Assembly: GCA_002497285.1 (NCBI GenBank)
Contig: DANJ01000011.1
Span: 3,091-67,090, forward strand
DNA: 64,000 nt
Reading direction: 5' to 3'
Source: Candidatus Pacearchaeota archaeon UBA92
Lineage (GTDB): Archaea > Nanobdellota > Nanobdellia > Pacearchaeales > GW2011-AR1
Shown: piece after piece, positions 5,101-58,804 of the stretch
How positions within the stretch are numbered: the first letter of the stretch is position 1
Layout of the letters: the number at the start of each line of letters is the position of its first letter
The notes under the pieces: model-generated
Told to the model about the DNA's origin: nothing
Seen by the model: only the letters and a program-made list of their open reading frames with translations
The model's database searches: none
Position numbers and translations under genes: made by a program

Positions 5101-8100
5101 AGTTAAGTCGTTAAGCAACCCAACATTAGTATTAATATAGTCATTTATTCCGTCATGCCAACTGGCATTGCCAAAGTACCCTGTAGAATTAATTATGGCT
5201 CCATTACTCAAACTCCCATTATTTGAATAACTTGACAAATCAACAGGGTCTCCAGAAGCATTAACATCATCCATTCGCATCCACAAAACTAAACTATTAT
5301 CAAAATCCACAAAACTATAATGATCGCTTGCATCAGAGCTTGAAACATTAACATAAATATCTGTATTCGTCTGATTGCTTGCGTTGGCAGGCGTTGGAGA
5401 GACAAAGCTGATTGCCGGGGCAATAGAATCAAACTCAAAATTCACACTCTCGCTATAATTCTTATTTCCTACAGTATCATTAGCATAAACCCTGAAAGTA
5501 TAATTTCCTGAAGCAATACTTGAATTAGAAGCATTAAAGTTCTGATTATTTACGGATGACATAGTAATATTATTTATTCCATCATCTAGAGAATACAAAA
5601 CGCTTCCATTTTCGCTCAAAGAAACATTAAAGTTCAAAGGCAAATTATTCAAACCATATGTCTCGGATTCCGGAAAGACGATTGTAACTCCCAGTCCTGT
5701 CGTGTCGCATTCAGGTCCCTCGTCAATCCTCGCAGGATCAAAGACTCCTGTGAATGTTGATGAGCAGTCAGTGTAGGAAGTTGTTATCGTCCCGTCAGCC
5801 ATCCCATTAATATATTTAGTAGCATTGAAAATACCTGGCAAGTTCAAAAGAATAGAAGTCATATTAACTGTTCCTCCGGACTTCCCTTTTGATTCTAAAG
5901 TGCCAGATAATATTATTGAACTGGAAGAATTAATAAATATTGTTCCTCCGCCTCCATGGTCTATGCAAGGGGTTGATCCCAGGCAGGTTTCATATCCTCC
6001 CGACGCATTTATGTTGCCCAAAAAATTGAGATTATTAGAAGAAGTGATAGCAATTCTCCCTCCACCTCCTGCACCTCTGTTAAGGTTTCCTCCTATGTCC
6101 GAAGACCTTACGCTTAGAGATCCGTCTCCTGAAATCACATTCCCTTTGAGCCAGATGCTGCCTCCAGATCCCCTCAATCCTTGAGTAGAAGTAACTGCAT
6201 CCATTGAAATTGTCCCATTAACTATAATCCGGTCTCCTTCTAACTTAATCGCTGCCGCCCCGTTTCCACCTCCTCCGCCACTTCCTAAAGAAGTCGGGGC
6301 AGTTTCATTTCCATAAGTACTTACCCCTTGGCTTCCCAGACCCCCATACGATCCTCCATGTTTTGTGGATGAGCAGGTAAGAGGAGATCCAGGTCCTGCA
6401 CAAACGGGGAAACCAAAGTCAGTGCCCTTCAAAATACTCTTTTGTGAGATAGTTATATTTCCACTGCTATTAATCCATACTCCTTTTCCGTCAGATGTTA
6501 TATTATAACAAGTAATAGGATTAGATGCATTAAGAAAACAATCTCCGTATATTGAAACATTGAATCCATTACTATCAAAATTCCCAAGAACATTTATAAC
6601 ATCCCCGTCTCCGGCATCTCCTCCCAATAGCCCTATGTTTCCTGTTAAATTCCAATCCATTGGCCAGATATTATCTGTGAATGTAAGCGTTCCTTGGTCC
6701 CCAGAAGAGGAAAACCCGACACTTCCTGAAACAGATATATTTCCTGTATAATTCAATAGATTAGTATAATCTAACCTTATCCTTCCTCCACCTCCTCCTG
6801 GATTATTTGACCCTGTTAAACTCCCTGCATCTGCTCTTAGAGATCCGTCTCCTGAAATCGCATTTCCTTTGAGCCAGATGCTGCCTCCTGCTCCAGGTTT
6901 AGTGTTTGTGGTTCCGCCGACTCCATCAAAGACTAAATTACCATCTGCCAAAATAACATCCCCTTCCAACTTAACTGCAGAGCCACCGGGTCGACCTATT
7001 CCGCTTCCAGTAGAAGTTCCACCGCTTCCTAATGAGGTAGGAGCTGTTGCATTCCCATAAGGATCTTTTGTATTGCTTCCACCTCGACCGCCATGAGCCC
7101 CGCCGGATCTTACTCCTGCCAAAGAGCCAGGTCCGGAATCAGTACCAAATCCTAGCCCTGTACCATTCAATACTCCTGAACTTCCAATTGTTATATTCCC
7201 ATTTAAACTTCTCCATATCTGTCCTTCCCCATCCGCAGTTAAATTATATCCAGGCGTGTTAGTTGAATTCCCGACATAATCCCCATAAATCTTCATAGTT
7301 CCTCCAGAAACATTAATATTATTCGTAACATTCCAATACTGGCTTCCGACCGCATTTGCCCCCCAACTCCCGACGGCAAATAAAGCATTAAAATGTATAG
7401 ACCCTGTGTATCCGGAAGTAACTGTAAATGAACCAAGATCTTGAGGTAATGTATTATTTGTAACATTCACATTTCCTGTTCCAGATGAATTAAAGACAAT
7501 ATCATCGCCTGCAATTGGGACTCTTCCTCTGCTCCACGCAGTTGCATTGTCAAATAGTTGATTAGATGAAGATATCCAGGTATTTGTTCCAATTCCTGCC
7601 TGTACCGTCATAATTCTCTGTTCCGAATAATTCTTATTTCCTACAGTATCATTAGCATAAACCCTGAAAGTATATGCTCCATCAGCAATTGAATTATTTG
7701 TATAATTGAATCCGTTTCCTGTTCCATTTACAGTCATAGTAATATTATTTATTCCGCCATCTAAGGTATATTGAACCGAGCCATTTTCAGACAAACTAAC
7801 ATTAAAGTTCAATGGCAAAGCATTGTAAGTTGCTCCAGCAGTAGGGAAGATTACATTCACGTTTGGAGCAGTTGTGTCTGCAGACGCATTATTTATCGTC
7901 ACTGTCCTCTTGTCCGTGCTATTCTTATTTCCAGCGATATCAACTGCATAAGCGGTGAATGTATGATCTCCTACGGCAAGATTAGTGAAGTTATTCTGGT
8001 ATTGCGTTGCAGTAGCATTGTAAAGTGCAGAGATTTCACCAGCAGATAAACTCCTGTTGAATACTAAAACTTCATCTATTGAACCGGCGAGATAATTAGT

Positions 8101-29260: not shown

Positions 29261-31039
29261 ATGATAACAAGAGAAGAACTAATAAAAGAGTATATAGAAT
29301 TTTTTAGAAAAAACAAACATAAACAAATTCCATCTTCCTCTCTAATCCCTATCAACGACCCCACTGTTCTATTCACAACAGCAGGTATGCATCCATTAGT
29401 TCCTTATCTCACTGGACAAAAACATCCCTTTGGAAAACGCCTTGTAAGTGTTCAAAAATGTGTTCGTACTGGAGACATAGATTCTGTAGGTGATAAAGTT
29501 CATCATACCTTCTTTGAAATGCTTGGCAACTGGTCTCTCGGAGATTATTGGAAAAAAGAAGCAATCCAGTTTTCATTCGATTTCCTAACAAAGGAATTAA
29601 AAATACCCCTAGAAAAATTAGCAATCACTTGCTTCAAAGGAAATGAAGACGCCCCAAAAGACGAAGAGTCCGAAAAAATCTGGCGTTCTCTTGAAATATC
29701 AAAAGACAGAATTGCATTTCTTGGAAAGGAAGATAACTGGTGGGGCCCTGCAGGCAAGACAGGCCCATGTGGCCCAGATACAGAAATATTTTATTACACG
29801 GGAAAAACAGTTCCAAAAAAGTTCGACCCCAAAGACAAAGATTGGGTAGAAATTTGGAACGACGTTTTTATGCAGTATGAAAAAACAAAAGAAAATAAAT
29901 ACATCCCACTAAAACAAAAAAACGTAGATACTGGAATGGGCGTTGAAAGAACACTTGCAGTATTAAATCAATTAGAAGATAATTATCAAACCCCTATATT
30001 CCATCCAATAATAAAAGAAATAGAAATTCTATCCAAAAAGAAATATGAGGGCCACTACAAAAAAGATATGAGGATAATCGCAGACCACATAAGAGCAACT
30101 ACACTAGTCCTTGGAGATGACCATTTAGTAAAGCCTTCAAATACCGAGCAGGGTTATGTTATAAGACGATTAATAAGAAGGGCCGTAAGGTACGGAAATA
30201 GGTTAGAAATAAAAAACAATTTCGCTACAAAAATAGCCCTTATAGTGATTGAAACCTATGAAAATTATTATCCAGAACTTAAAAAGAATAAGAATTTCAT
30301 ATTAACTCAGTTAGATGAAGAAGAAAACAAATTCAGAAAGACCTTAGAATCAGGAATAAAAGAATTTGAAAAGATATCTAAAAGCAAAAAAATAATTTCA
30401 GGAAAAGAAGCTTTTCTTTTATATCAATCCTATGGTTTTCCTATTGAACTAACGGAAGAATTAGCTTCTGAAAAGAAAATAAAGTTAAACATGGATGAAT
30501 ATGATAAAGAATTCGAAAAGCACCAACACCTTTCGAGAACCCAGTCTGCAGGAATGTTCAAATCTGGTCTATCAGACAATTCAGAACAAACAACTAAACT
30601 ACACACAGCAACCCATTTACTAAATGAGGCACTTAGAAAAGTCCTTGGAAAAGAAGTAAAACAGCGTGGTTCCAACATTACACCAGAAAGATTAAGATTC
30701 GACTTTAACTTTCCAAGAAAATTAACTGAAAAAGAAATCAAAGAAGTAGAAGATTTAGTAAATAAAAAAATAAAACAAGGATTAAAAGTAGAAAGAACAG
30801 AAGGAAATCTCCAATCTGCTTTAAAATCTGGAGCGCAGGCAGAATTCGGACACAAATATCCAGACAAAGTTTCAGTTTACACAATTCTAGATAAAAAAGA
30901 AAAATCAGGCTTCTTCTCAAAAGAAATCTGCACAGGCCCCCATGTAAAGAACACAAAAGAGATTGGACATTTCAAGATAATAAAAGAAGAATCATCAGCC
31001 GCGGGAATAAGAAGAATTAAGGCTATTGTAGAAGATTAG
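29261..31039 (+). CDS. alaS: alanyl-tRNA synthetase, compact bacterial-type form lacking a C-Ala domain
   Basis: SSSLIPINDPTVLFTTAGM, QKCVRTGDIDSVGDKVHHTFFEMLGNWSLGDYW, and editing-domain motifs HTATHLLNEAL and CTGPHV. It is only 592 aa. Confidence 0.85.
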   Translation: MITREELIKEYIEFFRKNKHKQIPSSSLIPINDPTVLFTTAGMHPLVPYLTGQKHPFGKRLVSVQKCVRTGDIDSVGDKVHHTFFEMLGNWSLGDYWKKEAIQFSFDFLTKELKIPLEKLAITCFKGNEDAPKDEESEKIWRSLEISKDRIAFLGKEDNWWGPAGKTGPCGPDTEIFYYTGKTVPKKFDPKDKDWVEIWNDVFMQYEKTKENKYIPLKQKNVDTGMGVERTLAVLNQLEDNYQTPIFHPIIKEIEILSKKKYEGHYKKDMRIIADHIRATTLVLGDDHLVKPSNTEQGYVIRRLIRRAVRYGNRLEIKNNFATKIALIVIETYENYYPELKKNKNFILTQLDEEENKFRKTLESGIKEFEKISKSKKIISGKEAFLLYQSYGFPIELTEELASEKKIKLNMDEYDKEFEKHQHLSRTQSAGMFKSGLSDNSEQTTKLHTATHLLNEALRKVLGKEVKQRGSNITPERLRFDFNFPRKLTEKEIKEVEDLVNKKIKQGLKVERTEGNLQSALKSGAQAEFGHKYPDKVSVYTILDKKEKSGFFSKEICTGPHVKNTKEIGHFKIIKEESSAAGIRRIKAIVED

Positions 31040-42354: not shown

Positions 42355-42529
42355 AGTTTATTTAAGTTTAACTCCTTTATATAATTATCGTTTATAAAAA
42401 CTATGTTAATATTAGTTAATTTTATTATAATGTGGGATATAATTGTATTTTTATCGTCGGTTATTGTATTTACTTATAAAAGTAAGAAATAGAAAGGTTT
42501 ATATAGTAGTTATTACTTATATAAGTAAG

Positions 42530-43792
42530 ATGATAAAAGTAAATAATCAAATACAAACAACGGACATAAGAAAACTTAACCGAGAAGAACGAGGTAAGTT
42601 AATCTTTGAGAATGGAAGGATTAGACAGAAAGATAACTATTGGGTTGTTGATTCTCAAACTTCATTTAAAGCATATAAAGTAAGTTTTAATGGACACAAA
42701 CCAAAATGCACTTGCCCAGATTGTCAAATAAGAAAAGGCAAATGCAAACATATTTTCGCAGTAGAACTTTATATTAAAAGACAAATAGATGAAGAAGGTA
42801 AGATAACAGAAACAAGAGGAGTAAACATAAAACAATATTCTCAAAAATGGTCTGCTTATAATAAATCTCAAACAAACGAAAAGTTAATTTTTATGAAATT
42901 GTTAAAAGATTTATGTGAGAATGTAGAACAGCCAGAATATAAATTTGGTCGTCCAACTTTGCCTTTTAGTGATATGCTCTTTGGCTCTGTAATGAAAGTT
43001 TATACAGGATTTTCATTAAGAAGATTTATGTCTGATATGAAAATTGCCCACGATTACGGATTAGTTGATAATGTGCCTTGTTATTCTTCTCTATCTAATT
43101 TTATGAATAAAGAAGAAGTTAAGTCAATATTGGAAAATCTAATAACAATTAGTTCTCTACCTCTTAAAGAAATTGAAAAAGATTTTGCAGTTGATAGTTC
43201 AGGATTTTCAACTTCAAGATATGCTCGTTGGTTTGATTACAAATGGGGGAAAGAAAGAAAGTATAAAGTTTGGTTAAAAGCACATTTAATTTCAGGAGTT
43301 AAAACTAATGTTATTACAGGAGTTAAGATAACAGAAGGACAGGAAAACGACAGCCCACAATTAAAAGAATTAGTTAAGAAAACGGCAGAGAACTTTGGAA
43401 TTTCAGAAGTAAGCGGAGATAAGGCATACAACAGCCGAGAGAATCTTAAAGTTATTGAAGAAGTTGGTGGAATTCCTTATATTCCTTTCAAAAAGAATGT
43501 TACAGGAAAAAGAGGTGGTTGTTCAATTTGGGGTAAGATGTATCATTATTTTATGTATAAACACGATGAATTTTTAGAACACTATCATAAAAGGTCTAAT
43601 TCAGAAACAATTTTTCATATGATTAAAACAAAATTCAGAGGAGATATTAAAAGCAAAAAGCAGACCGCACAATTTAACGAACTTCTGATTAAAGTTTTAT
43701 GTCATAATGTTTGTGTTGTAATTCAAGAAATAAACGAATTGGGGGTAAAAGCAGAATTTAATCTTGAACAGACAAGAGAAATTTCTGTTTAA
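42530..43792 (+). CDS. DDE transposase (IS4/IS5 superfamily-like) with N-terminal SWIM zinc finger
   Basis: SWIM motif CTCPDCQIRKGKCKHIFAVELY. Candidate DDE residues are in FAVDSSGFS, VSGDKAYNS and RSNSETIFHMIKTKF. The start is taken at MIKVNN. Confidence 0.8.
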   Translation: MIKVNNQIQTTDIRKLNREERGKLIFENGRIRQKDNYWVVDSQTSFKAYKVSFNGHKPKCTCPDCQIRKGKCKHIFAVELYIKRQIDEEGKITETRGVNIKQYSQKWSAYNKSQTNEKLIFMKLLKDLCENVEQPEYKFGRPTLPFSDMLFGSVMKVYTGFSLRRFMSDMKIAHDYGLVDNVPCYSSLSNFMNKEEVKSILENLITISSLPLKEIEKDFAVDSSGFSTSRYARWFDYKWGKERKYKVWLKAHLISGVKTNVITGVKITEGQENDSPQLKELVKKTAENFGISEVSGDKAYNSRENLKVIEEVGGIPYIPFKKNVTGKRGGCSIWGKMYHYFMYKHDEFLEHYHKRSNSETIFHMIKTKFRGDIKSKKQTAQFNELLIKVLCHNVCVVIQEINELGVKAEFNLEQTREISV

Positions 43793-44984: not shown

Positions 44985-45416
44985 CTAAAACCCTCTTCTC
45001 CTACCCATAATCTCCCTATAAACCTCCTGAACTCTCTCTTCAAAATCTTCTTGTCCAACCGGACTTTTAGAAAAAAACTCAAAATTACATCTTCCCCATT
45101 GTTCAGAAAAGTCTCTTGAAGATATTCCAATTACATAAGCAGTTGGCATTAAAGCTCTATCTCTAAGCAAACAGCAAAGCTCATAACCTCTAGGCATGTT
45201 TCTAGAAAAGCCAAGTTGAGTATCACAGACAAACAAGTCTATCCGAGGCGTGCTATGAACTAATCTGTCTAATTCGCTTTCACTTGTAGTTTCTTCAACC
45301 CTGAAACCTGCAATTATTAACTTAGTTGCATAATGAACTGCCCACTGCGCATCATCATCATATACAATAGCAAATGGGGCGTCTGTAAATGAACTCATAA
45401 AAAGAAAGAATATCAA
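44985..45416 (-). CDS. CheY-like receiver-domain protein (stand-alone)
   Basis: IVYDDD, DLFVCDTQLG, VIGISS and FFSK fall at the expected receiver positions. The likely start is MSSFTD (45398). Confidence 0.45.
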   Translation of the reverse strand: MIFFLFMSSFTDAPFAIVYDDDAQWAVHYATKLIIAGFRVEETTSESELDRLVHSTPRIDLFVCDTQLGFSRNMPRGYELCCLLRDRALMPTAYVIGISSRDFSEQWGRCNFEFFSKSPVGQEDFEERVQEVYREIMGRRRGF

Positions 45417-45432
45417 AAATATATAGAGTTTA

Positions 45433-48400
45433 CTATTCTACATATATTCCAGGTCTTCCGGGTTTTACCTTCCCAGATTTCCCAGAAGGATCATATTTAT
45501 TCTTATCATTAACTGCATACACCTTAACCTTTAATCCCATCTTTTCTCCCAATGCATTCTCATCATAACTCTTCAATTCTTGAGGAAGAACATAAAGATA
45601 AATCTTCTCGGCCTTCCCTCCTTTACCTTCAACCAACTTCAAAATCTGCCCAATGTCATTAACTGTCTTCTCCAATGCCTTATCCGCTTCTTCAATCTTG
45701 TCATCAATTTTCTTCTCATCAAACTCGGGCCAAGTAGATAAGGAAACAAAACCTTTCCCTCCAATCTTACTCCACAATTCCTCGGCAATGTGTGGACAGA
45801 AAAGTCCAAACATTTTCAAAAAACTTTCTAAGTCTTTCTTCCCAGCTCCTTCCTTTTCAATAACTCCAAACAATTCTCTTAATTTTATAACTGCAAGATT
45901 ATACTTCATATTTTCAATATCAATTCCAATTGTCCTTATTCCCTTATTCACATAATGTTCCAATTTCTTACTACTCTTTCCTAACTTCAAATCAGAGAAA
46001 TAATCCCAAACTTTCAAAACAAATCTTAAACTTCCCTGTGCTCCTTCCTCGCTCCAGCTGAAATCCTTATCCGGCCCTGCAACAGATACCAAAAACAATC
46101 GGACTCCATCAACCCCATATTTCTTTGCAGCAATTTCAGGAACAATCACATTTCCCAAGGATTTTGACATCTTTTTCCCATCTTCTCCATAAATGAACCC
46201 CTGTGTGAAAAGCCTTTTTGCTGGTTCTCTTACACTTACCAAACCCAAGTCGCTCAAAAACTTTGTATAAAATCTGAAATAGATGTCATGCATCGTCGCA
46301 TGCTCCTTTCCTCCGATATATAGGTCAATAGGCATCCAGTAATCAGCCTTCTTTTTCTCAAATATTTTATTTTTATTTTTAGAATCCAGATATCTTAAGA
46401 AATACCAGCTGCTGTCAACAAAAGTATCCATCGTGTCAGTCTCTCTCCTTCCCATTTTACCGCACTTCCAGCATTTCACATTTACAAAATTATTATTTCC
46501 TTTCAAGGGATTTTCAACACCTTGAAACTTAATATTTTCAGGCAACTTCACTGGCAAATCTTTCTCTCTAACGGGCTGAATTCCGCAATTATCGCAATAG
46601 ATAATTGGAATTGGAGTTCCCCAAAATCTCTGCCTACTTATCAGCCAGTCCCGTAACTTATATGCAACCTTCTTTCTCCCAAGCCCTTTCTCATTCAATG
46701 CAATTGTAATATGTTCCTTTGCCTCTTCAGACGACAAGCCGGAAAATCCCTCGCTATTAATCAACTTGCCATAAACTACATAAGCTTCCTTACTCACATC
46801 ACCTTCAATGACTTGCTTTATCTTTAAACCATACTTCTTAGCAAAATCCCAATCACGGGCATCATGCGCAGGCACACCCATCACAATGCCAGAGCCATAA
46901 TCAGAAACAACAAAATTCCCTGTCCAGATTGGTATTCTTTCCCCTGTCAGAGGATGCTTAGCATAACTGCCTGTAAATACGCCTTCCTTATTCATCCTAT
47001 CCCTGTCTTCATCTTTCGTACTCTTGACCTTCTTCAAAAACGCCTCAACTTCCCTCTTCCTGTCAGACGTAACAAGACTCATCAGTTCAGGATGCTGCGC
47101 AGAAACAACTAAAAATGTAGCGCCAAATAAAGTGTCAACTCGCGTTGTAAATACTTTCCACTTTTTACCAGAAACGATTTCATTTAGTAATTCAGGGAAT
47201 TCTTTTGTCCCCATCTGCCTATCCAAAAAATGTCCTCTTTCATCCAACCTTATTAGTTTAGCACCCAAATCCCTTGCATATTTTTCTGCATTTTCAATCC
47301 TATGCACCTCATCATTCGAAATAAATATTGAAATTTCATCAACATTATCTTTTATCTTTGCATTCAAATTAAAATCGTAAAGCCCAGAATTTAGAACCTT
47401 ATAGGCTTTCTTGTGTTTTCCACCAGGGGCAACTAAAATCAATTTATTGATTTTCTTATTAGTCTCACTTAACCACCGAAGCAAAAAAGCTCCTCCTGCA
47501 GAATGCCCTATTAATATACTTCTCTCATCAATCTGTTTGTTTAGCTTTTCTAGTTCTGCCTTCCACTCATTATACTTAGGTGTGCTTACGTGAGGCATCA
47601 AAGGAACAAAAGTCTTTATTCCTTTTCTTTCTAATTTATCCTTTATCCAAGTTAGCCAATGCCTTTCATTTATAGTCTCTTCTCTACCACTAGCAGCAAA
47701 CCCATGAATAATTATAGCATTAGAAATTTTTTTCTCATCTCCGACCTCAAAATCAACCTCCGTCCCTTCTGACTTCCCGATCCAATTTCTCTGTAAAGTC
47801 TTAATCATCTCAGGCCATTCATCCAGCTTGTCCAAGCCAGAAAGCAATTCATCGGCATAATCCGTAGTCTTTAGAAACCACTGCTCCAATTGTTTTACTT
47901 CAACATTCGTATCTTCATGTCTCCAGCATTTGCCATCAACAACCTGTTCATTCGCCAATACCGTATTGCACTTAGGGCAGAAATTTACGCCCGCTTTCTT
48001 CCTATATGCTAATCCCGATTCAAGCATCTTCAAAAATATCCACTGATCCCATTTATAGTAAGCAGGATCATGGCTCTTCAGCATCCTGTCCCAGTCATAA
48101 GACAGCCCGAAGCCTTTCATCTGTTTTATAAAATTCTTAATGGCCTCATCAGTAAACTTCCTTGGATGGCTCTTGTTTTTTATAGCGGCATTTTCAGCTG
48201 GCAACCCAAAAGAATCAAAGCCCATTGGATGCATTACATTGTATCCTTGCATTCTCTTAAACCTGGCAAAAATATCTCCTATTGTATAGATGAAAGCGTG
48301 CCCCATATGCAACCCAGATCCAGAGGGATAAGGATATTGTTCCAGGACATAAAACTTCTTCTTACCTTTTACATTATCCTTGGCAACAAACGCTTTACCT

Positions 48401-48462
48401 TTCTCCCATTTTCCCTGCCATTTTTTCTCTATTGCCTTAAAATTAATCATCTTCTTAACCAT
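45433..48462 (-). CDS. leuS: leucyl-tRNA synthetase, bacterial type, with inserted YdeN/RBBP9-like serine hydrolase domain
   Basis: PYPSGSGLHMGHAFIYTIGD, MGFDSFGLPAENAAI, Zn motif CPKCNTV...CWRH, CP1 motifs VFTTRVDTLFG and GVPAHDARDWDFAKK, and KMSKS. An extra ~190 aa sits between NWIGKSEGTEVDF and VFTTR. Confidence 0.9.
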   Translation of the reverse strand: MVKKMINFKAIEKKWQGKWEKGKAFVAKDNVKGKKKFYVLEQYPYPSGSGLHMGHAFIYTIGDIFARFKRMQGYNVMHPMGFDSFGLPAENAAIKNKSHPRKFTDEAIKNFIKQMKGFGLSYDWDRMLKSHDPAYYKWDQWIFLKMLESGLAYRKKAGVNFCPKCNTVLANEQVVDGKCWRHEDTNVEVKQLEQWFLKTTDYADELLSGLDKLDEWPEMIKTLQRNWIGKSEGTEVDFEVGDEKKISNAIIIHGFAASGREETINERHWLTWIKDKLERKGIKTFVPLMPHVSTPKYNEWKAELEKLNKQIDERSILIGHSAGGAFLLRWLSETNKKINKLILVAPGGKHKKAYKVLNSGLYDFNLNAKIKDNVDEISIFISNDEVHRIENAEKYARDLGAKLIRLDERGHFLDRQMGTKEFPELLNEIVSGKKWKVFTTRVDTLFGATFLVVSAQHPELMSLVTSDRKREVEAFLKKVKSTKDEDRDRMNKEGVFTGSYAKHPLTGERIPIWTGNFVVSDYGSGIVMGVPAHDARDWDFAKKYGLKIKQVIEGDVSKEAYVVYGKLINSEGFSGLSSEEAKEHITIALNEKGLGRKKVAYKLRDWLISRQRFWGTPIPIIYCDNCGIQPVREKDLPVKLPENIKFQGVENPLKGNNNFVNVKCWKCGKMGRRETDTMDTFVDSSWYFLRYLDSKNKNKIFEKKKADYWMPIDLYIGGKEHATMHDIYFRFYTKFLSDLGLVSVREPAKRLFTQGFIYGEDGKKMSKSLGNVIVPEIAAKKYGVDGVRLFLVSVAGPDKDFSWSEEGAQGSLRFVLKVWDYFSDLKLGKSSKKLEHYVNKGIRTIGIDIENMKYNLAVIKLRELFGVIEKEGAGKKDLESFLKMFGLFCPHIAEELWSKIGGKGFVSLSTWPEFDEKKIDDKIEEADKALEKTVNDIGQILKLVEGKGGKAEKIYLYVLPQELKSYDENALGEKMGLKVKVYAVNDKNKYDPSGKSGKVKPGRPGIYVE
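47161..47733 (-). other. alpha/beta serine-hydrolase domain inserted in LeuRS (about aa 244-434)
   Basis: AIIIHGF, RHWLTWIKDKLERKGIKTFVPLMP, LIGHSAGG (GxSxG), ERGHFLDRQMGTKEFPELL. It is collinear with the product of 48462-49082. Confidence 0.75.
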
Positions 48463-49082
48463 TATTCTAATATTGCCTCCAACAATTCTGGAAATTCTTC
48501 AGTCCCCATATCTTCTAAACAATAATGCCCATTACCTTTTAATTCTACCAATTTTCCTCCAAGGGCATCATGAAAGATTTTAGCACTTTTCTTCCCATCT
48601 TCCTCTTCATCGTCAGAAGTGAATATGGTTATCTTTGCAACATTCTTTTTGATTTCTGGATTTATCTGATAATTATAAAATTTCTTCTTTAATTCTAATC
48701 GTTCTCCTTCGCCATAAGGAATTTTCCAAGGAGCCACCAAAATTAATTTTTTAACCTTCTTGTCAATATCTCCAAGCCACCTTACTAAAAAAGCGGCCCC
48801 ACAACTATGGCCAACCAAAACGGTATCTTCATTAATTTCTAACTTACTAAACCCCTCTTTCCAAATTTCATAATCAGCTCTCCAAGGATTGGGCATATGG
48901 GGTGCTTCTACTTCTATACCGCCCTTCTCCAATTTTTTCTTTACCCAAGGAATCCAGTGTTTATCATAAGTCCTTTCTTCGAGACTCATGGCTTTTTCTT
49001 CATCATAAGGACAACCGTGTAGTATTATCACATTCATACATACATCAAAACCAGCTGAATTATAAAACTTTCCAATCGCCAA
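48462..49082 (-). CDS. YdeN/RBBP9-family serine hydrolase (free-standing paralog of the LeuRS insert)
   Basis: VIILHGC, KHWIPWVKKKLEKGGIEVEAPHMPNP, LVGHSCGAAFLVRWL, GNGHYCLEDMGTEEFPELL. Its TAA overlaps the leuS ATG by 1 nt (TAATG). Confidence 0.75.
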   Translation of the reverse strand: MAIGKFYNSAGFDVCMNVIILHGCPYDEEKAMSLEERTYDKHWIPWVKKKLEKGGIEVEAPHMPNPWRADYEIWKEGFSKLEINEDTVLVGHSCGAAFLVRWLGDIDKKVKKLILVAPWKIPYGEGERLELKKKFYNYQINPEIKKNVAKITIFTSDDEEEDGKKSAKIFHDALGGKLVELKGNGHYCLEDMGTEEFPELLEAILE

Positions 49083-49112
49083 CCTTAAATATCCTAAATC
49101 CTAAATATAACT

Positions 49113-49659: not shown

Positions 49660-50646
49660 ATGCCTGATTTACAAAAAGTGGGAGATACAAAAAATAGGAT
49701 TTTATCAATAATTAAAAACAAGGGCCCTTCCTATCCTGCACAGGTATCAAAAGAAGCAGGAGTTTCCCCTTTATTCACTGCAGCGTTCCTTTCAGAACTT
49801 GTAAAAGACAGACAATTAAAAATGAGTAGTATGAAAGTAGGAAGCTCGCCAATTTATTACGCTCCTGGTCAAGAGCCACAATTAGAAAATTTTGTAAAAT
49901 ATTTAAATTCGAAAGAAAGAGAAGCTTTTGAAAAGCTAAAAAACTCAGAGGTGGTAGAAGATTTATCCCAACAACCAGCCATTAGAGTTGCCCTAAGAAA
50001 TATCAATGATTTTGCAGTTCCAATAAACGTCCGTATTGATGGAGAAACAAAACTTTTTTGGAGGCATTTCCAATTCCCTGAATCACAAACAAGAGACAGA
50101 ATTAGAGAACTCTTATCTCCTTCAAATATTATAAGACCAAAACAAAAAGAAACAGTCCTGGTTCAAGTTAAGGAAGAGCCTAAAAAAGAAGAAACTATTC
50201 CAACGCAGACAGAAACTGCAATCAAAGAGACAAAATCACAAATAGAACCTCTGATAAAAGAGACAGAAAGAAAAGTAGAGAAAATAATAGAAAAACCCAT
50301 AAAAATAAAATCTAAAAAAGAAAAAATAATCTCTTCAGAATTTGCAGAGTCTGTAAAAGACTACCTAGCTACAAAAGATGTAGAGATATTAGAAGAAGTA
50401 ATGGTAAAAAAGAAAGAATTTGTGGCAAAAGTCCGCACAGATGAATCCTTTGGCAAACAAGAATTCTACCTCATAGCAAAAGACAAAAAAAAGATTAATC
50501 AGGACGATTTAACCCTAGCAATCCAACATGCCCAGTCTCAAAGAATGCCTGCCCTATTTCTCTCTCCTGGCTCTTTAGACGCCAATGCCTCCTCTTATAT
50601 CCAAGAATGGAAAAATGTAATAAAATTCAACAAGGTTAAGATTTGA
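49660..50646 (+). CDS. winged-helix-like hypothetical protein
   Basis: The N-terminal ILSIIKNKGPSYPAQVSKEAGVSPLFTAAFLSELVKDRQLK looks wHTH-like, followed by a K/E-rich linker. The C-terminal domain is unassigned. Confidence 0.4.
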   Translation: MPDLQKVGDTKNRILSIIKNKGPSYPAQVSKEAGVSPLFTAAFLSELVKDRQLKMSSMKVGSSPIYYAPGQEPQLENFVKYLNSKEREAFEKLKNSEVVEDLSQQPAIRVALRNINDFAVPINVRIDGETKLFWRHFQFPESQTRDRIRELLSPSNIIRPKQKETVLVQVKEEPKKEETIPTQTETAIKETKSQIEPLIKETERKVEKIIEKPIKIKSKKEKIISSEFAESVKDYLATKDVEILEEVMVKKKEFVAKVRTDESFGKQEFYLIAKDKKKINQDDLTLAIQHAQSQRMPALFLSPGSLDANASSYIQEWKNVIKFNKVKI

Positions 50647-51540: not shown

Positions 51541-51562
51541 ACCATTTTTTGCTTCTAATTTT

Positions 51563-51635
51563 GGCTCTGTAGCTTAGTGGTTAAAGCGCCTGTCTCATAC
51601 GCAGGAGATCGAGAGTTCAATTCTCTCCAGAGCCA
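51563..51635 (+). tRNA. tRNA-Met (anticodon CAT; elongator Met or Ile2-type, G1:C72)
   Basis: Hand-folded cloverleaf: acceptor GGCTCTG/CAGAGCC, D arm GCTT/AAGC, anticodon arm CCTGT-CTCATAC-GCAGG, T arm GAGAG-TTCAATT-CTCTC, discriminator A. Confidence 0.9.
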
Positions 51636-51680
51636 TTATGGATATTAAACCTGGACTCCTAGAACCCGGAGAGGTTGTAG

Positions 51681-55854: not shown

Positions 55855-57540
55855 CTACTTAATCCTTGTCTCAACAATTTTCCCTGCATTTTCAAAAACA
55901 ACTTTATCCTTAAGCAAATCTTTCAAAATCTTGATTAAATCCTTAATATGAACTCTAATCTGTCTTGTTGAATCTCTATCCCTGATTGTAACTGTCTTGT
56001 CTTCTATAGTCTGTCCATCAATAGCAATGCAATAAGGAGTTCCAATTTCGTCCTGCCTACTATAACGTCTACCAATACTTCCAGATTTATCATAAAATAC
56101 GTTTAACTCTTCTTTCAACTCCTTATATAATTCATACCCTGCATCAGCAATTTCTCCTTTTGAAATAACAGGCATTACAGCCGCTTTATAGGGAGCTAAT
56201 TTTGGACTTAGATGCAGAACAACATTCTCTCTCTTTTTGTCAAATTCATAGGCATCGAGCATAAAAGCAATAAATGCTCTTCCTACACCAAGAGACGGTT
56301 CACAAGCAACTTCAGGAATAAGTCTAGATTTAGAATCCTCATCAAAAATCTCAAAACTCTTCCCGCTTTTCTCCTGATGTTGAGTTAAATCATAAATTCC
56401 ACGATTAGCAAATCCCTGTAATTCTCTCCAACCCATAGGAAATTTATATTCCAAGTCCCACGTATCGATGGCATAATGACTCTTTTCCTCACTAATATGC
56501 TGTCTCGCCCTGAAGTTTTCGGGGTTTGCTCCCAAAAGCAAAAACCAGCTAAATTCTTGAGCAAGCCAATATGCATGCCAATCTATCATCATTCCTTTCT
56601 TCCAAGAATCTAATATTTTCATTTTCTCTCCCTCCCTATTTTCTTTCTGCATACCTTCAGTCAAGAATGTAATTTCCAAATCAGGCAATTCATCCATATA
56701 AGGACATTTTGAACCTGGCTTGGTAAAATATTCAATTTCCATTTGCTCAAACTCTCGACTTCTAAACAAAAATTCTCTCGGTGCTATTTCATTCCTAAAA
56801 GCTTTTCCAATTTGTGCAATTCCAAAAGGCAACTTTCCCCTTGCATTATCAAAAACATTTCTAAAATTTACAAAAATAGATTGTGCAGTTTCCGGACGCA
56901 GATAGGATTCACTTCCTTTACCAGGACCAACTTTTGTTTCAAACATCGGATTGAACTTGCCTTCTATCTCATACTCTGCTTTATTCTCATAATTTTTAAC
57001 TTCATGCGCATCAACCTTGAATCTTTCTTTCTTCTTTTTATCATAAACAATGTAATCTACAAAGTTCTCGACATGTCCCGAAGCTTCCCAAACTTTTGGA
57101 TTCGTAATTATGCTCCCATCAACGCCTTCAACATCCTCTCTATTTCTAACATGAAATGCCCACCAAGAATCTTTTATATTCTTAGCAAGTTCAACACCCA
57201 AAGGCCCATAATCCCAAAATCCAGCTAATCCTCCATAAATTTCTCCAGAAGGATAAACAAATCCTTTCCTCTTACAAAATGAGGCGAGTTCATCAATTCC
57301 AATCTCGGTCCTCTCTGTCTTAACAACCATCTTAATCTTATTTTTGTTTTCTTGGTTTTTAATCTCTTCGCTACTTTCATTCATAACAAACTTTTTCATC
57401 CTCTCCTCTGCTTCCTTTTTCGTCTTACCTAAATAAGCAATAGTTTTTGCAACAACCTTTCCCTTAATTCTTTTGCTTTCTCGTAAATAATAATATTCAT
57501 TATTCCCAATCTTCTTTTTAACTATGAACATTTTATACAA
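55855..57540 (-). CDS. glyS: glycyl-tRNA synthetase (archaeal/eukaryotic alpha2 type) with ~80-aa N-terminal extension
   Basis: RKGFVYPSGEIYGGLAGFWDYGPLGVELAKN, FRNEIAPREFLFRSREFEQMEIEYF, SLGVGRAF. The extension carries IGNNEYYYLRESKRIKGKVVAKTIAYLGK. Confidence 0.9.
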   Translation of the reverse strand: MYKMFIVKKKIGNNEYYYLRESKRIKGKVVAKTIAYLGKTKKEAEERMKKFVMNESSEEIKNQENKNKIKMVVKTERTEIGIDELASFCKRKGFVYPSGEIYGGLAGFWDYGPLGVELAKNIKDSWWAFHVRNREDVEGVDGSIITNPKVWEASGHVENFVDYIVYDKKKKERFKVDAHEVKNYENKAEYEIEGKFNPMFETKVGPGKGSESYLRPETAQSIFVNFRNVFDNARGKLPFGIAQIGKAFRNEIAPREFLFRSREFEQMEIEYFTKPGSKCPYMDELPDLEITFLTEGMQKENREGEKMKILDSWKKGMMIDWHAYWLAQEFSWFLLLGANPENFRARQHISEEKSHYAIDTWDLEYKFPMGWRELQGFANRGIYDLTQHQEKSGKSFEIFDEDSKSRLIPEVACEPSLGVGRAFIAFMLDAYEFDKKRENVVLHLSPKLAPYKAAVMPVISKGEIADAGYELYKELKEELNVFYDKSGSIGRRYSRQDEIGTPYCIAIDGQTIEDKTVTIRDRDSTRQIRVHIKDLIKILKDLLKDKVVFENAGKIVETRIK

Positions 57541-57901: not shown

Positions 57902-57973
57902 AGCGCGGAGAGGGATTCGAACCCCCGCATGGAAGCTCTGCAGGCTTCTGCCTTACCACTTGGCTATCCGCGC
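57902..57973 (-). tRNA. tRNA-Cys (GCA)
   Basis: Hand-folded: acceptor GCGCGGA/TCCGCGC, anticodon arm GAAGC-CTGCAGA-GCTTC, T arm GGGGG-TTCGAAT-CCCTC. TTTAAATA lies ~27 nt upstream (57997-58004). Confidence 0.85.
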
Positions 57974-58654: not shown

Positions 58655-58692
58655 AATGCCAATAAGAACCTCTTTTTTATAAATTCTTCCAA

Positions 58693-58767
58693 CGGCCTCG
58701 ACAGGATTTGAACCTGCGACCCCTTGCTTAGAAGGCAAGTGCTCTATCCAGGCTGAGCTACGAGGCC
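58693..58767 (-). tRNA. tRNA-Arg (TCT)
   Basis: Hand-folded: acceptor GGCCTCG/CGAGGCC, D arm GCTC/GAGC, anticodon arm CTTGC-CTTCTAA-GCAAG, T arm GCAGG-TTCAAAT-CCTGT. TTTAAATA lies ~27 nt upstream (58791-58798). Confidence 0.9.
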
Positions 58768-58804
58768 ATATATAAAAACCAAAAAAAGAATATTTAAAGC
58801 TATC

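What the first reader, a model, noticed from the sequence alone, without database searches (positions are those of the whole stretch)
45433..49082. LeuRS with a YdeN/RBBP9-type serine-hydrolase domain inserted at the CP1 editing-domain hinge, plus an adjacent coupled free-standing paralog
About 190 aa are inserted between the conserved NWIGKSEGTEVDF and VFTTRVDTLFG segments, which are normally a few residues apart in bacterial-type LeuRS. The insert spans roughly aa 244-434 (DNA 47161-47733). It has the alpha/beta-hydrolase hallmarks IIIHGF, LIGHSAGG (nucleophile elbow) and ERGHF. The insert is collinear with the 206-aa protein encoded immediately upstream: RHWLTWIKDKLERKGIKTFVPLMP vs KHWIPWVKKKLEKGGIEVEAPHMP, LIGHSAGGAFLLRWL vs LVGHSCGAAFLVRWL, and MGTKEFPELL vs MGTEEFPELL. 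The upstream gene's stop overlaps the leuS start (TAATG). The CP1 editing motifs, HIGH and KMSKS are all intact. I know of no aminoacyl-tRNA synthetase carrying this hydrolase family. Sitting next to the path of the tRNA 3' end, it could be an additional ester-hydrolysing (proofreading or deacylating) site, and the neighbour could be a trans-acting version.
Basis: partly seen in the sequence, partly recalled or inferred. Interest (0 to 1): 0.85.

Follow-up and report, generated by a model that had tools for sequence, protein, structure and literature searches.

The report
Serine hydrolase module inside leucyl-tRNA synthetase
The leucyl-tRNA synthetase of a tiny symbiotic archaeon has a complete, apparently active YdeN/RBBP9-type serine hydrolase inserted into its proofreading domain, plus a free copy encoded just upstream; this pairing is widespread but undescribed in DPANN archaea and CPR bacteria, and its biochemical role is untested.

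Summary
The minus-strand ORF 45433..48462 is a 1009-aa bacterial-type LeuRS. A 198-aa segment holding a PF06821 (YdeN/RBBP9) serine hydrolase sits in a beta-hairpin tip that is 8 aa long in insert-less relatives. The Ser/acid/His residues, HIGH, KMSKS and the CP1 editing residues are all intact. A 191-aa paralog (41% identical) lies upstream with a TAATG overlap.

It is not a misassembly: the identical protein occurs on 8 independently assembled contigs.

It is not unique. 81 of the 119 nearest LeuRS cluster representatives carry the hydrolase, 79 at this site and 2 at a second CP1 site. Of the 79 loci kept from a scan of species genomes, 43 link this hydrolase to LeuRS. The links are in-frame insertions at two sites, tandem copies, adjacent genes on either side, and a fusion or adjacency to archaeal-type LeuRS. 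CPR bacteria have it too.

The module behaves as a cassette that is present, absent or swapped. It occasionally sits in other hosts (ValRS, GT2, Der, UvrB, NUDIX).

My best reading, which is inferred and not shown, is an alpha-aminoacyl ester/amide hydrolase coupled to LeuRS in cis and in trans. I found no publication describing it.

The parts
45433..48462 (-). leuS: a 1009-aa LeuRS with a bacterial-type catalytic core and CP1, and an archaeal-type C-terminal domain
   Evidence: TIGR00396 scores 893 bits. The AF2 model has pLDDT 87.5 and TMt 0.75-0.80 to T. thermophilus and E. coli LeuRS. The last 109 aa are 50% identical to the C-terminal domain of an archaeal-type LeuRS.
47749..47787 (-). 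NWIGKSEGTEVDF (aa 226-238): the conserved strand that leads into CP1 and forms the 5' flank of the insert
47155..47748 (-). Inserted segment, aa 239-436 (198 aa): hairpin remnants plus a type-A PF06821 serine hydrolase domain. Pfam matches aa 250-425, DNA 47188-47715.
   Evidence: PF06821 E 2.2e-19. Relatives without the insert have 8 aa here. The AF2 model of the domain has pLDDT 91.2 and TM 0.83-0.85 to YdeN (1uxo) and RBBP9 (7oex, 2qs9).
47698..47715 (-). IIIHGF (aa 250-255): strand beta-1 and the HG dipeptide that lines the oxyanion hole
   Evidence: H253 and G254 are each conserved in 79 of 81 inserts.
47491..47508 (-). GHSAGG nucleophile elbow; Ser321 is at 47500-47502
   Evidence: Ser is present in 80 of 81 inserts; the one exception, P0188, is not a hydrolase.
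47308..47319 (-). SNDE (aa 382-385): the catalytic-acid position, D384/E385
   Evidence: The column at position 385 is D in 49 and E in 29 of 81 inserts, and D in 64 of 70 free-standing proteins. It aligns with the DD of YdeN and RBBP9.
47227..47238 (-). RGHF (aa 409-412): the catalytic His411, followed by the type-A signature MGTKEFPELL
   Evidence: His is present in 79 of 81 inserts. The signature served as the search pattern that found 371 species genomes.
46603..47154 (-). The rest of the CP1 editing domain (aa 437-620), with VFTTRVDT (T439, T440, T444) and HDARD (D534, D537)
   Evidence: PF13603 profile positions 21-181. These residues are invariant in alignment A2. They were mapped onto T. 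thermophilus and E. coli LeuRS.
48298..48309 (-). HMGH (the HIGH motif), aa 52-55
46159..46173 (-). KMSKS motif, aa 764-768
48462..49037 (-). Free-standing type-A PF06821 hydrolase, 191 aa from the ATG (the ORF extends to the TTG at 49082). It has GHSCGA, SDDE and NGHY.
   Evidence: PF06821 E 4.3e-15. It is 41% identical to the insert, 75% identical to the upstream gene of the insert-less relative L007, and up to 63% identical to inserts of other LeuRS.
48460..48464 (-). TAATG: the stop codon of the hydrolase gene overlaps the leuS ATG by one base
   Evidence: L007 has a 4-nt overlap.
49038..49112 (.). 75-bp divergent intergenic region between the hydrolase-leuS operon and the tRNA-splicing endonuclease gene. 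It has a TTTATAA element about 27 nt upstream of the hydrolase ATG.
   Evidence: Sequence read. Calling it a promoter is my inference only.

Best explanation
What is shown. The window encodes a two-gene operon in a Pacearchaeota (DPANN) archaeon. A free-standing YdeN/RBBP9-family serine hydrolase is followed, with overlapping stop and start codons, by a fully equipped LeuRS. That LeuRS carries a second, diverged copy of the same hydrolase as a folded domain in the tip of the first beta-hairpin of its CP1 editing domain. Both copies keep the Ser-acid-His triad and the HG oxyanion motif.

What is inferred. The hydrolase clade is a LeuRS accessory enzyme that acts in cis when inserted and in trans when encoded next to leuS. 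It most likely hydrolyses an alpha-aminoacyl ester or amide with a free alpha-amine that arises at LeuRS. The leading candidate is the aminoacyl ester on the 3' end of (mis)acylated tRNA-Leu, which would add to CP1 editing rather than replace it. Chemically related leucyl by-products are the alternative substrates.

How it evolved. The module behaves as a cassette that is gained, lost or swapped between otherwise near-identical leuS genes.
For: Identity and catalytic competence. PF06821 is above threshold for both copies. The AF2 domain model has pLDDT 91.2, TM 0.83-0.85 to YdeN and RBBP9, and only about 0.6 to other alpha/beta hydrolases. Across 81 inserts, Ser is kept in 80, His in 79, the acid (D or E) in 78 and HG in 79.

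Coupling to LeuRS. 79 of the 119 nearest LeuRS representatives have the insert at this site, and 2 more have it at a second CP1 site. Of the 79 kept genome loci, 29 have site-1 insertions; 4 of these are in CPR bacteria and 3 carry tandem copies. A further 4 have the hydrolase elsewhere in LeuRS, 9 have it only as a separate gene next to leuS on the same strand (L035 about 0.8 kb away), and 1 is an N-terminal fusion. Two of these partners are archaeal-type LeuRS (TIGR00395, 823-892 bits) that is only about 30% identical to the bacterial type. The closest insert-less LeuRS keeps the orthologous upstream hydrolase with an overlapping stop/start. A ValRS fragment also hosts the module. Loci not linked to LeuRS share no other recurrent neighbour.

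Chemistry. RBBP9, the only characterised family member, is a serine aminopeptidase that strictly needs a free alpha-amine (PMC8866121). It is also cited as a valacyclovir-activating enzyme (Shenoy et al. 2020, cited in PMC7730578). Valacyclovir is the L-valyl ester of a nucleoside analogue (my own knowledge).

Additive to CP1. The editing residues are invariant in 64 LeuRS with or without the insert.

Cassette behaviour. The window LeuRS and P0071 are 80-97% identical right up to both junctions. The window LeuRS and P0073 have flanks 87-90% identical but inserts only 23-40% identical.
Against: No activity or substrate has been tested for any member of this clade.

The RBBP9 pocket residues are not conserved. 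S76 aligns with A/C/L/R, and Y99 and E108 fall in a variable loop of low pLDDT.

The same module also occurs inside a GT2 glycosyltransferase, the Der GTPase, UvrB and YdjC, and is fused to NUDIX. Its presence in a protein therefore does not by itself imply a tRNA-related role.

Its position is not fixed: two CP1 loops, the N-terminus, separate genes, and a non-CP1 loop in ValRS. Other unrelated domains (NUDIX, a nucleotidyltransferase-like domain, unknown domains) occupy the same LeuRS loops. These loops may simply tolerate insertions.

CP1 is intact, so no editing gap is evident. About 36 of the 79 loci, mostly CPR, are not near leuS.

Confidence: 0.4

Rival explanations
1. Leucine supply. 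The hydrolase is an RBBP9-like aminopeptidase, or an amino-acid ester or amide hydrolase, that releases leucine from imported peptides. It would be co-expressed with or tethered to LeuRS in organisms that cannot make amino acids.
For: RBBP9 is an aminopeptidase that removes N-terminal residues and needs a free alpha-amine. Linkage to Leu- and Val-specific synthetases of both evolutionary types fits an amino-acid-centred role rather than a structure-centred one. Function from a separate adjacent gene needs no defined geometry. That DPANN and CPR organisms are amino-acid auxotrophs is general knowledge that I did not test here.
Against: It does not explain why in-frame insertion into CP1 loops dominates over simple terminal fusion, given that the genes are so often adjacent. 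No peptide transporter or peptidase recurs as a neighbour. The RBBP9 specificity pocket is not conserved. Free leucine would not be channelled by tethering alone.
Confidence: 0.2
2. Promiscuous passenger. This is a compact 190-aa enzyme that folds on its own and whose termini are presumably close together. It spreads by recombination into permissive surface loops of highly expressed essential proteins and keeps its own housekeeping esterase function, unrelated to leucylation.
For: The same clade is inserted in GT2 (58% identical to LeuRS inserts), Der, UvrB and ValRS, and is fused to YdjC and NUDIX. The two LeuRS loops also host NUDIX, a nucleotidyltransferase-like domain and unknown domains. 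Presence, absence and swapping occur between near-identical leuS genes. Free-standing genes are nested among inserts in the tree, so adjacency could come from fission of fused genes.
Against: LeuRS is the partner in 43 of 79 loci, while every other host was seen once. There is independent linkage to archaeal-type LeuRS, which is too divergent for homologous hopping. The upstream-gene-plus-leuS operon is conserved in a relative that lacks the insert. No terminal repeats or other mobile-element hallmarks flank the insert.
Confidence: 0.25
3. Clean-up of reactive by-products of leucine activation. The hydrolase would remove leucyl groups transferred from Leu-AMP to lysines or thiols (protein leucylation, aminoacyl-CoA), or would hydrolyse homocysteine thiolactone. 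The NUDIX domain found in some relatives would remove nucleotide by-products such as Ap4A.
For: The family acts on aminoacyl amides and esters with a free amine. The hydrolase and NUDIX co-occur in the same LeuRS and as stand-alone two-domain proteins. That synthetases make such by-products is established knowledge that I recalled and did not test here.
Against: It is purely analogical. The NUDIX subtype could not be assigned. MetRS, the main source of homocysteine thiolactone, was not found as a host.
Confidence: 0.1
4. Artefact or selfish element. The insert would be a misassembly or chimera, or an intein-like or mobile-DNA insertion with no enzymatic role.
For: There is a short A-rich direct repeat at the two junctions, GAG AAA AAA and GGT AAA AAG.
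Against: The identical protein is on 8 independent contigs. The insert is in frame and the triad is under clear purifying selection across about 80 diverged homologs. There is no Hint domain, no conserved Cys/Ser/Thr or Asn at the junctions, and there are no inverted terminal repeats.
Confidence: 0.02

Closest known systems
YdeN (B. subtilis, PDB 1uxo) and human RBBP9 (PDB 2qs9, 7oex), Pfam PF06821 Ser_hydrolase
   Same: Same family by sequence (70.5 bits against a cutoff of 22) and by fold (TM 0.82-0.85). Both are minimal alpha/beta hydrolases of about 190 aa with a GHSxG nucleophile elbow, an acid after the SxDD strand and a GH(F) histidine.
   Different: The known members are free-standing proteins. 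Here the domain is inserted inside an aminoacyl-tRNA synthetase. The residues that RBBP9 uses to hold phenylalanine and its alpha-amine (S76, Y99, L103, E108, F140, L141) are not conserved. This clade also has its own C-terminal signature, MGTxEFPELL.
aaRS editing domains and free-standing trans-editing factors: CP1 of LeuRS/IleRS/ValRS, and AlaXp, YbaK/ProXp and DTD (family descriptions from my own knowledge)
   Same: It is a hydrolytic module that occurs both inside a synthetase and as a free-standing paralog encoded next to it. That is the same cis/trans pattern as INS with YbaK, or the AlaRS editing domain with AlaXp.
   Different: The fold is unrelated (alpha/beta hydrolase with a serine nucleophile). 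It coexists with an intact CP1 instead of replacing it. Deacylation of tRNA has not been shown. The module also occurs in proteins that are not synthetases.
BPHL (valacyclovirase), a human alpha-amino-acid ester hydrolase (recalled from my own knowledge, not checked here)
   Same: It is an alpha/beta serine hydrolase that cleaves hydrophobic alpha-aminoacyl esters of nucleoside analogues. This is the chemistry proposed here, and RBBP9 is cited as sharing the valacyclovir activity.
   Different: It belongs to a different and larger alpha/beta-hydrolase family that has a cap domain. It has no known link to a synthetase.
Chimeric haloarchaeal LeuRS: bacterial core plus archaeal C-terminal domain (Fang et al. 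2014, PMC4005665)
   Same: The host protein here has the same mosaic. It has a bacterial-type Rossmann fold and CP1 (TIGR00396), and a C-terminal domain 50% identical to that of an archaeal-type LeuRS.
   Different: No hydrolase, NUDIX or other enzyme domain inside CP1 is mentioned in the passages I searched in that paper.
IleRS with an appended GNAT domain (NCBIfam NF040702, ileS_w_GNAT)
   Same: It is another class Ia synthetase that carries an extra enzyme domain and has been recognised as a distinct architecture (listed).
   Different: It is a different enzyme class, an acetyltransferase. The window protein matches that model only through the shared synthetase core (115 bits against a cutoff of 1999).

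Membership tests
Bacterial-type leucyl-tRNA synthetase (TIGR00396) | Whole-protein score above the curated cutoff | tested here: met
   893.2 bits against a cutoff of 548.4. The archaeal model TIGR00395 scores only 218 bits against a cutoff of 648.
Bacterial-type leucyl-tRNA synthetase (TIGR00396) | HIGH and KMSKS class I signature motifs | tested here: met
   HMGH at aa 52-55 and KMSKS at aa 764-768. Both are invariant or nearly invariant in A2.
Bacterial-type leucyl-tRNA synthetase (TIGR00396) | CP1 editing domain with the T-rich motif and the conserved Asp residues | tested here: met
   PF13603 E 1.6e-57. T439, T440, T444, D534 and D537 align with E. coli T247, T248, T252, D342 and D345.
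Bacterial-type leucyl-tRNA synthetase (TIGR00396) | Overall fold of bacterial LeuRS | tested here: met
   The AF2 model has pLDDT 87.5. Foldseek gives TMt 0.75-0.80 to 2bte, 4aq7 and 5omw.
Bacterial-type leucyl-tRNA synthetase (TIGR00396) | Bacterial-type C-terminal tRNA-binding domain | tested here: not met
   The bacterial model ends at aa 921. The last 109 aa are 50% identical (E 8e-35) to the C-terminal domain of an archaeal-type LeuRS. The protein is a chimera like the haloarchaeal LeuRS.
PF06821 Ser_hydrolase (YdeN/RBBP9) | Pfam score above the gathering threshold | tested here: met
   The insert scores 70.5 bits and the upstream protein 56.5 bits, against a cutoff of 22.
PF06821 Ser_hydrolase (YdeN/RBBP9) | Ser-Asp-His triad with a GxSxG elbow and the HG oxyanion motif | tested here: met
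   S321, D384/E385, H411 and H253-G254. Across 81 inserts these are kept in 80 (Ser), 78 (D or E), 79 (His) and 79 (HG).
PF06821 Ser_hydrolase (YdeN/RBBP9) | Minimal alpha/beta-hydrolase fold of about 190 aa without a cap | tested here: met
   TM 0.83/0.85 to 1uxo and 0.82/0.85 to 7oex, with rmsd 2.3-2.4 A. The next-best hydrolases score about 0.6.
PF06821 Ser_hydrolase (YdeN/RBBP9) | RBBP9-type substrate pocket (S76, Y99, L103, E108, F140, L141) for an aromatic aminoacyl group with a free amine | tested here: not met
   By sequence alignment these positions are variable or fall in a gapped lid loop of low pLDDT. I could not make a structure-based residue mapping.
PF06821 Ser_hydrolase (YdeN/RBBP9) | Aminopeptidase or aminoacyl-ester hydrolase activity | not testable with these tools
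   It needs enzymology. The only basis is the RBBP9 literature.
aaRS editing domains and trans-editing factors | Homology to a known editing fold (CP1, INS/YbaK, AlaX, DTD, N2) | tested here: not met
   The insert matches only alpha/beta-hydrolase families in Pfam and the PDB.
aaRS editing domains and trans-editing factors | Occurs both fused to and free-standing beside the cognate synthetase | tested here: met
   In-frame fusion to LeuRS in 34 of 79 loci (29 at site 1, 4 elsewhere in the protein, 1 N-terminal). Adjacent on the same strand in 9 more loci without a fusion and in 2 loci that also have an insert. The window has both arrangements.
aaRS editing domains and trans-editing factors | Hydrolysis of mischarged aminoacyl-tRNA | not testable with these tools
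   A deacylation assay is required.
Intein or mobile in-frame element | Hint domain, nucleophile and Asn at the junctions, or terminal repeats | tested here: not met
   There is no such Pfam hit. The junction residues are not conserved. There are no inverted repeats, only a short A-rich direct repeat.

The most novel reading that the evidence does not exclude
DPANN archaea and CPR bacteria possess a previously unrecognised class of synthetase-associated aminoacyl-ester hydrolase built on the alpha/beta-hydrolase (YdeN/RBBP9) fold. It would deacylate (mis)acylated tRNA-Leu, or a related leucyl ester, in cis as a domain inside CP1 and in trans as a neighbouring gene product. That would make it a new, serine-nucleophile type of editing or trans-editing factor that works alongside CP1.
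Probability: 0.25. Interest if true: 0.9.

Novelty: new variant of a known kind. Interest (0 to 1): 0.72.

Why it matters
Aminoacyl-tRNA synthetases are among the best-studied enzymes, and their proofreading modules belong to a handful of known folds. Here a large, environmentally widespread group of LeuRS enzymes carries an apparently active serine hydrolase of a different fold inside the editing domain. The scan matched 371 species-level genomes, and the hydrolase is in most of the nearest LeuRS relatives. A free-standing twin often sits beside the gene, and some relatives also carry NUDIX or other enzyme domains in a neighbouring loop.

If the hydrolase acts on aminoacyl-tRNA or on leucyl by-products, it would be a new mechanism of translational quality control or of regulating tRNA charging. 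It would be found in the two radiations of ultra-small symbionts whose biology is least understood.

If it does not, it is a striking natural example of modular insertion of an enzyme domain into an essential protein, with cassette-like gain, loss and swapping. That would be useful for protein engineering and for understanding genome streamlining.

Either outcome is directly testable with recombinant proteins. The finding also gives the orphan YdeN/RBBP9 family its first strong genomic functional association.

Tried and rejected
1. Misassembly. Rejected: the identical 1009-aa protein and the same neighbours are on 8 contigs from independent assemblies.

2. Uniqueness. Rejected. The first search, with the insert alone, returned only free-standing proteins and not even the window's own protein, which is a limit of the word index. 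Searching with the whole LeuRS revealed the many insert-bearing relatives.

3. The hydrolase replaces a degenerate CP1. Rejected: the editing residues are invariant.

4. Intein or mobile DNA. No Hint domain, no junction nucleophiles and no terminal inverted repeats.

5. Recombination tract around the insert. There is no dip in identity to P0071 at either flank.

6. Neighbour analysis of 36 loci not linked to LeuRS. Nothing recurs except a second PF06821 paralog.

7. Net charge as a proxy for tRNA binding. Uninformative: the insert is +6 and the upstream copy is -8.

8. Geometry of the triad relative to the editing and synthetic sites. Not possible, because model coordinates and PAE are not exposed.

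9. Subtyping the NUDIX insert of relatives. Only weak, mixed matches.

10. Literature searches. I searched for LeuRS or aaRS together with DPANN, CPR, hydrolase, NUDIX and PF06821 and found no description. One search failed on a syntax error.

11. The NJ trees are crude and star-like. I rely on them only for well-separated relationships that pairwise identities also support.

Full report
OBSERVATION. The minus strand carries a 1009-aa ORF at 45433..48462 and, overlapping its start, a 206-aa ORF at 48462..49082. The long ORF is a bacterial-type LeuRS: TIGR00396 scores 893 bits against a cutoff of 548. Pfam places a PF06821 Ser_hydrolase domain at aa 250-425 (E 2.2e-19). This domain splits the LeuRS editing-domain model PF13603, whose match resumes at profile position 21 after the insert. 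The upstream ORF is also PF06821 (E 4.3e-15) and is 41% identical to the insert over its whole length (E 1e-45). The stop/start overlap TAATG is present. The upstream gene most likely begins at the ATG at 49037 (191 aa). JGI's gene call and the start of its ortholog in locus L007 both indicate this.

NOT AN ARTEFACT. The exact 1009-aa protein is on 8 contigs assembled independently from different samples. The sources are NCBI GCA_001872795.1 (Candidatus Pacearchaeota archaeon CG1_02_32_132), JGI, ENA and Logan. All show the same gene order: tRNA-splicing endonuclease, then divergently the hydrolase, leuS, a 137-aa ORF and uppP/BacA. The neighbouring genes (EndA, Alba, S17e) and the source name place the window in a DPANN archaeon.

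ANATOMY OF THE INSERTION.
- In 37 insert-less relatives, the conserved strand ...GTE(V/I)DF is followed by an 8-residue turn (for example SVNDKKWK, xINGxKWx) and then (V/I)FTTRxDT. The window has 198 residues there.
- Aligned to solved structures, the insert lies between E237 and I243 of T. thermophilus LeuRS. In native E. coli numbering it lies between about 239 and 244. That is the tip of the first beta-hairpin of CP1, three to eight residues before T247, T248 and T252. It is therefore just inside the editing domain rather than in the hinge strands themselves.
- The editing residues (T439, T440, T444, D534, D537), HMGH and KMSKS are invariant or nearly so in a 64-sequence alignment of LeuRS with and without inserts.
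- An AF2 model of the whole protein is confident (pLDDT 87.5, pTM 0.76, hydrolase region mostly 83-92). It superposes on bacterial LeuRS structures with TMt 0.75-0.80.
- The insert modelled alone (pLDDT 91.2, pTM 0.90) is closest to YdeN (TM 0.83/0.85) and RBBP9 (TM 0.82/0.85). All other alpha/beta hydrolases score near 0.6.
- Model coordinates are not exposed, so I could not measure where the triad points.

THE HYDROLASE IS UNDER SELECTION. I aligned 81 site-1 inserts; 80 are hydrolases and the other, P0188, is an unrelated 165-aa segment. The nucleophile Ser is present in all 80 hydrolases, the His in 79, the acid position is D in 49 and E in 29, and the HG oxyanion dipeptide is present in 79. 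The window has D384-E385 at the acid position, and the upstream copy has DD.

There are at least two insert subtypes.
- Type A is the window's type. It has GHS(A/C)G, GHF and the signature MGTxEFPELL.
- Type B is divergent, with LLGHSLGS and AEDxHICGKxEP. It is still PF06821 (31 bits).

IT IS WIDESPREAD.
- Among the 119 nearest LeuRS cluster representatives, 79 carry the hydrolase at this site and 39 have only a short turn. They are labelled Pacearchaeota, Woesearchaeota and Nanoarchaeota and are 53-77% identical in the best BLASTP alignment.
- A second hot spot lies inside CP1 after FAKKYGLxIKQVI. There, relatives carry a NUDIX domain, a nucleotidyltransferase-like domain, unknown domains, or the same hydrolase (P0149, P0181).
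- A scan of one genome per GTDB species with the type-A signature found 371 genomes.
- I classified the best 79 loci by tblastn and reading frame. 29 have the in-frame site-1 insertion. Four of these are Patescibacteria/CPR bacteria (L038, L059, L066, L081) and three carry tandem double copies (L010, L033, L059). 4 have the hydrolase at another position in LeuRS (L034, L039, L041, L049). 6 have it only as a separate gene immediately downstream of leuS, and 2 insert-bearing loci have a further downstream copy. 3 have it upstream (L035 about 0.8 kb away). 1 is an N-terminal fusion. About 36, mostly CPR, have no LeuRS within 6 kb.
- Two of the partners (L040 adjacent, L077 fused) are archaeal-type LeuRS (TIGR00395, 892 and 823 bits). 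They share only about 30% identity with the bacterial type, so these associations arose independently.
- Loci not linked to LeuRS have no recurrent neighbour other than a second PF06821 gene.

CASSETTE-LIKE EVOLUTION.
- The window's nearest LeuRS relative, P0071, lacks the insert (77% identical by BLASTP, 84% in A2). It has the same operon: an orthologous upstream hydrolase (75% identical to the window's, 42% to the window's insert) that overlaps leuS by 4 nt.
- Identity between the window LeuRS and P0071 is 80-97% right up to both junctions. P0073 is equally close in the flanks (87-90%), but it carries a type-B insert only 23-40% identical, plus a NUDIX domain at site 2.
- The window's upstream gene is more similar to the inserts of other LeuRS (up to 63%) than to its own genome's insert. 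Free-standing DPANN hydrolases are nested among the inserts in a neighbour-joining tree. These trees are crude, but pairwise identities support these particular relationships.
- At the DNA level the junctions carry a short A-rich direct repeat (GAG AAA AAA ... GGT AAA AAG) that could mediate precise loss. There are no inverted terminal repeats.

PROMISCUITY. A profile search of 1.84 billion representatives found 3467 family members at E<=1e-3 and 202 at E<=1e-30. Most long hits are LeuRS or LeuRS fragments. The same clade is also inserted in a GT2 glycosyltransferase (58% identical to LeuRS inserts), in the Der/EngA GTPase between its two G domains, in UvrB, and as a tandem pair in a ValRS fragment in the loop between DTWFSS...WP and FYPT. 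It is also fused to YdjC and to NUDIX in stand-alone two-domain proteins. Each of these hosts was seen once, whereas LeuRS is the partner in the majority of cases.

HOW IT LIKELY WORKS. The following points are shown:
- a folded, catalytically equipped YdeN/RBBP9-type hydrolase sits inside an otherwise complete LeuRS;
- a diverged free copy is co-transcribed or translationally coupled;
- there is a strong, repeatedly evolved linkage of this hydrolase clade to LeuRS of both evolutionary types.

The rest is inferred. The enzyme acts on something produced or handled by LeuRS. The only characterised family member, RBBP9, is a serine aminopeptidase that requires a free alpha-amine (PMC8866121). It is also cited as a valacyclovir-activating enzyme; valacyclovir is the L-valyl ester of a nucleoside analogue (my own knowledge). 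An aminoacyl ester on the terminal adenosine of tRNA is chemically the same kind of substrate.

I therefore rank the readings as follows.
- First, a cis/trans aminoacyl-ester hydrolase that adds to CP1 editing (confidence about 0.4 for this broad reading, about 0.25 for tRNA deacylation specifically).
- Second, a promiscuous passenger enzyme tolerated in permissive loops (0.25).
- Third, an aminopeptidase that supplies leucine (0.2).
- Fourth, clean-up of leucyl adducts and thioesters (0.1).

Several points count against the leading model. The RBBP9 pocket residues are not conserved. The position of the module is not fixed. Unrelated domains use the same loops. CP1 shows no deficiency.

NOVELTY. 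Sources name these proteins only as leucine--tRNA ligase, class I tRNA ligase family protein or hypothetical protein. Seven full-text searches and three papers read found no description of a hydrolase, or a NUDIX domain, inside LeuRS. The host's mosaic nature, with a bacterial core and an archaeal C-terminal domain, does have a precedent in haloarchaea (PMC4005665). I classify the finding as a new variant of a known kind: a synthetase with an accessory hydrolytic module and a free-standing paralog. It is real, widespread and unexplained.

Noticed in passing
window 45433-45762 (last 109 aa of LeuRS); locus L040 3320-5998: The LeuRS is a chimera. Its core and CP1 are bacterial-type, but its C-terminal domain, which ends ...KVKPGRPGIYVE, is 50% identical (E 8e-35) to the C-terminal domain of an archaeal-type LeuRS. 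The rest of the protein is only about 30% identical to that enzyme. This resembles the chimeric haloarchaeal LeuRS of Fang et al. 2014.
   Followed up: partly
relatives P0073, P0082, P0099, P0110, P0121, P0130, P0172, P0189 (site 2, after FAKKYGLxIKQVI; window aa 552-566 has no insert): A second insertion hot spot inside CP1 carries a NUDIX domain of about 150 aa in many relatives. In others it carries a nucleotidyltransferase-like domain (P0102), unknown domains (P0089, P0143) or the PF06821 hydrolase itself (P0149, P0181). The NUDIX subtype could not be assigned.
   Followed up: partly
proteins P0197, P0271, P0242, P0301, P0221, P0222, P0226 (representative library): The same type-A hydrolase clade is inserted in frame into a GT2 glycosyltransferase, the Der/EngA GTPase, UvrB and a ValRS fragment (as a tandem pair). 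It is also fused to YdjC and to NUDIX in stand-alone proteins. A compact enzyme domain that hops between host proteins is unusual in itself.
   Followed up: partly
loci L010, L033, L059 (tandem inserts); L014, L055, L068, L070, L084 (tandem genes): The hydrolase often occurs as two diverged copies side by side (27-34% identical to the query for the second copy). This happens both inside LeuRS and as adjacent genes, as in the window's insert-plus-upstream pair. It hints at paired or heterodimeric function.
   Followed up: no
window 42443-43792 (+): A DDE_Tnp_1 transposase ORF lies two genes downstream of leuS. It is called at 449 aa on one contig and 420 aa on others that carry the identical LeuRS (different start calls). 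It is absent from the syntenic region of the insert-less relative L007, where an AlaRS gene follows instead.
   Followed up: no
window 44985-45416 (-): A 137-143-aa ORF immediately downstream of leuS has no Pfam or NCBIfam match. It is conserved on all contigs that carry this LeuRS. The relative L007 has a different small ORF (77 aa) at that place.
   Followed up: no
window 2185-10617 (-): A giant 2810-aa ORF has Laminin_G/ConA-like lectin, Ig-like and Y_Y_Y domains and a weak match, just below Pfam's cutoff, to a Nup98-type S59 autopeptidase domain (aa 2404-2491). It is presumably a cell-surface protein of the symbiont.
   Followed up: no
window 29261-31039 (+), 55855-57540 (-), 51562-51636, 57902-57973, 58692-58768: Other translation genes lie in the window. 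There is a short 592-aa AlaRS (catalytic domain plus tRNA_SAD, no C-terminal extension) and a class II synthetase with an HGTP anticodon-binding domain. There are also tRNA-Met, tRNA-Cys and tRNA-Arg genes. No tRNA-Leu gene is in the window.
   Followed up: no
window 49660-50646 (+): A 328-aa ORF lies between the tRNA-splicing endonuclease and the EamA-like gene. It has no family match but is conserved in synteny in the relative L007 (303 aa).
   Followed up: no
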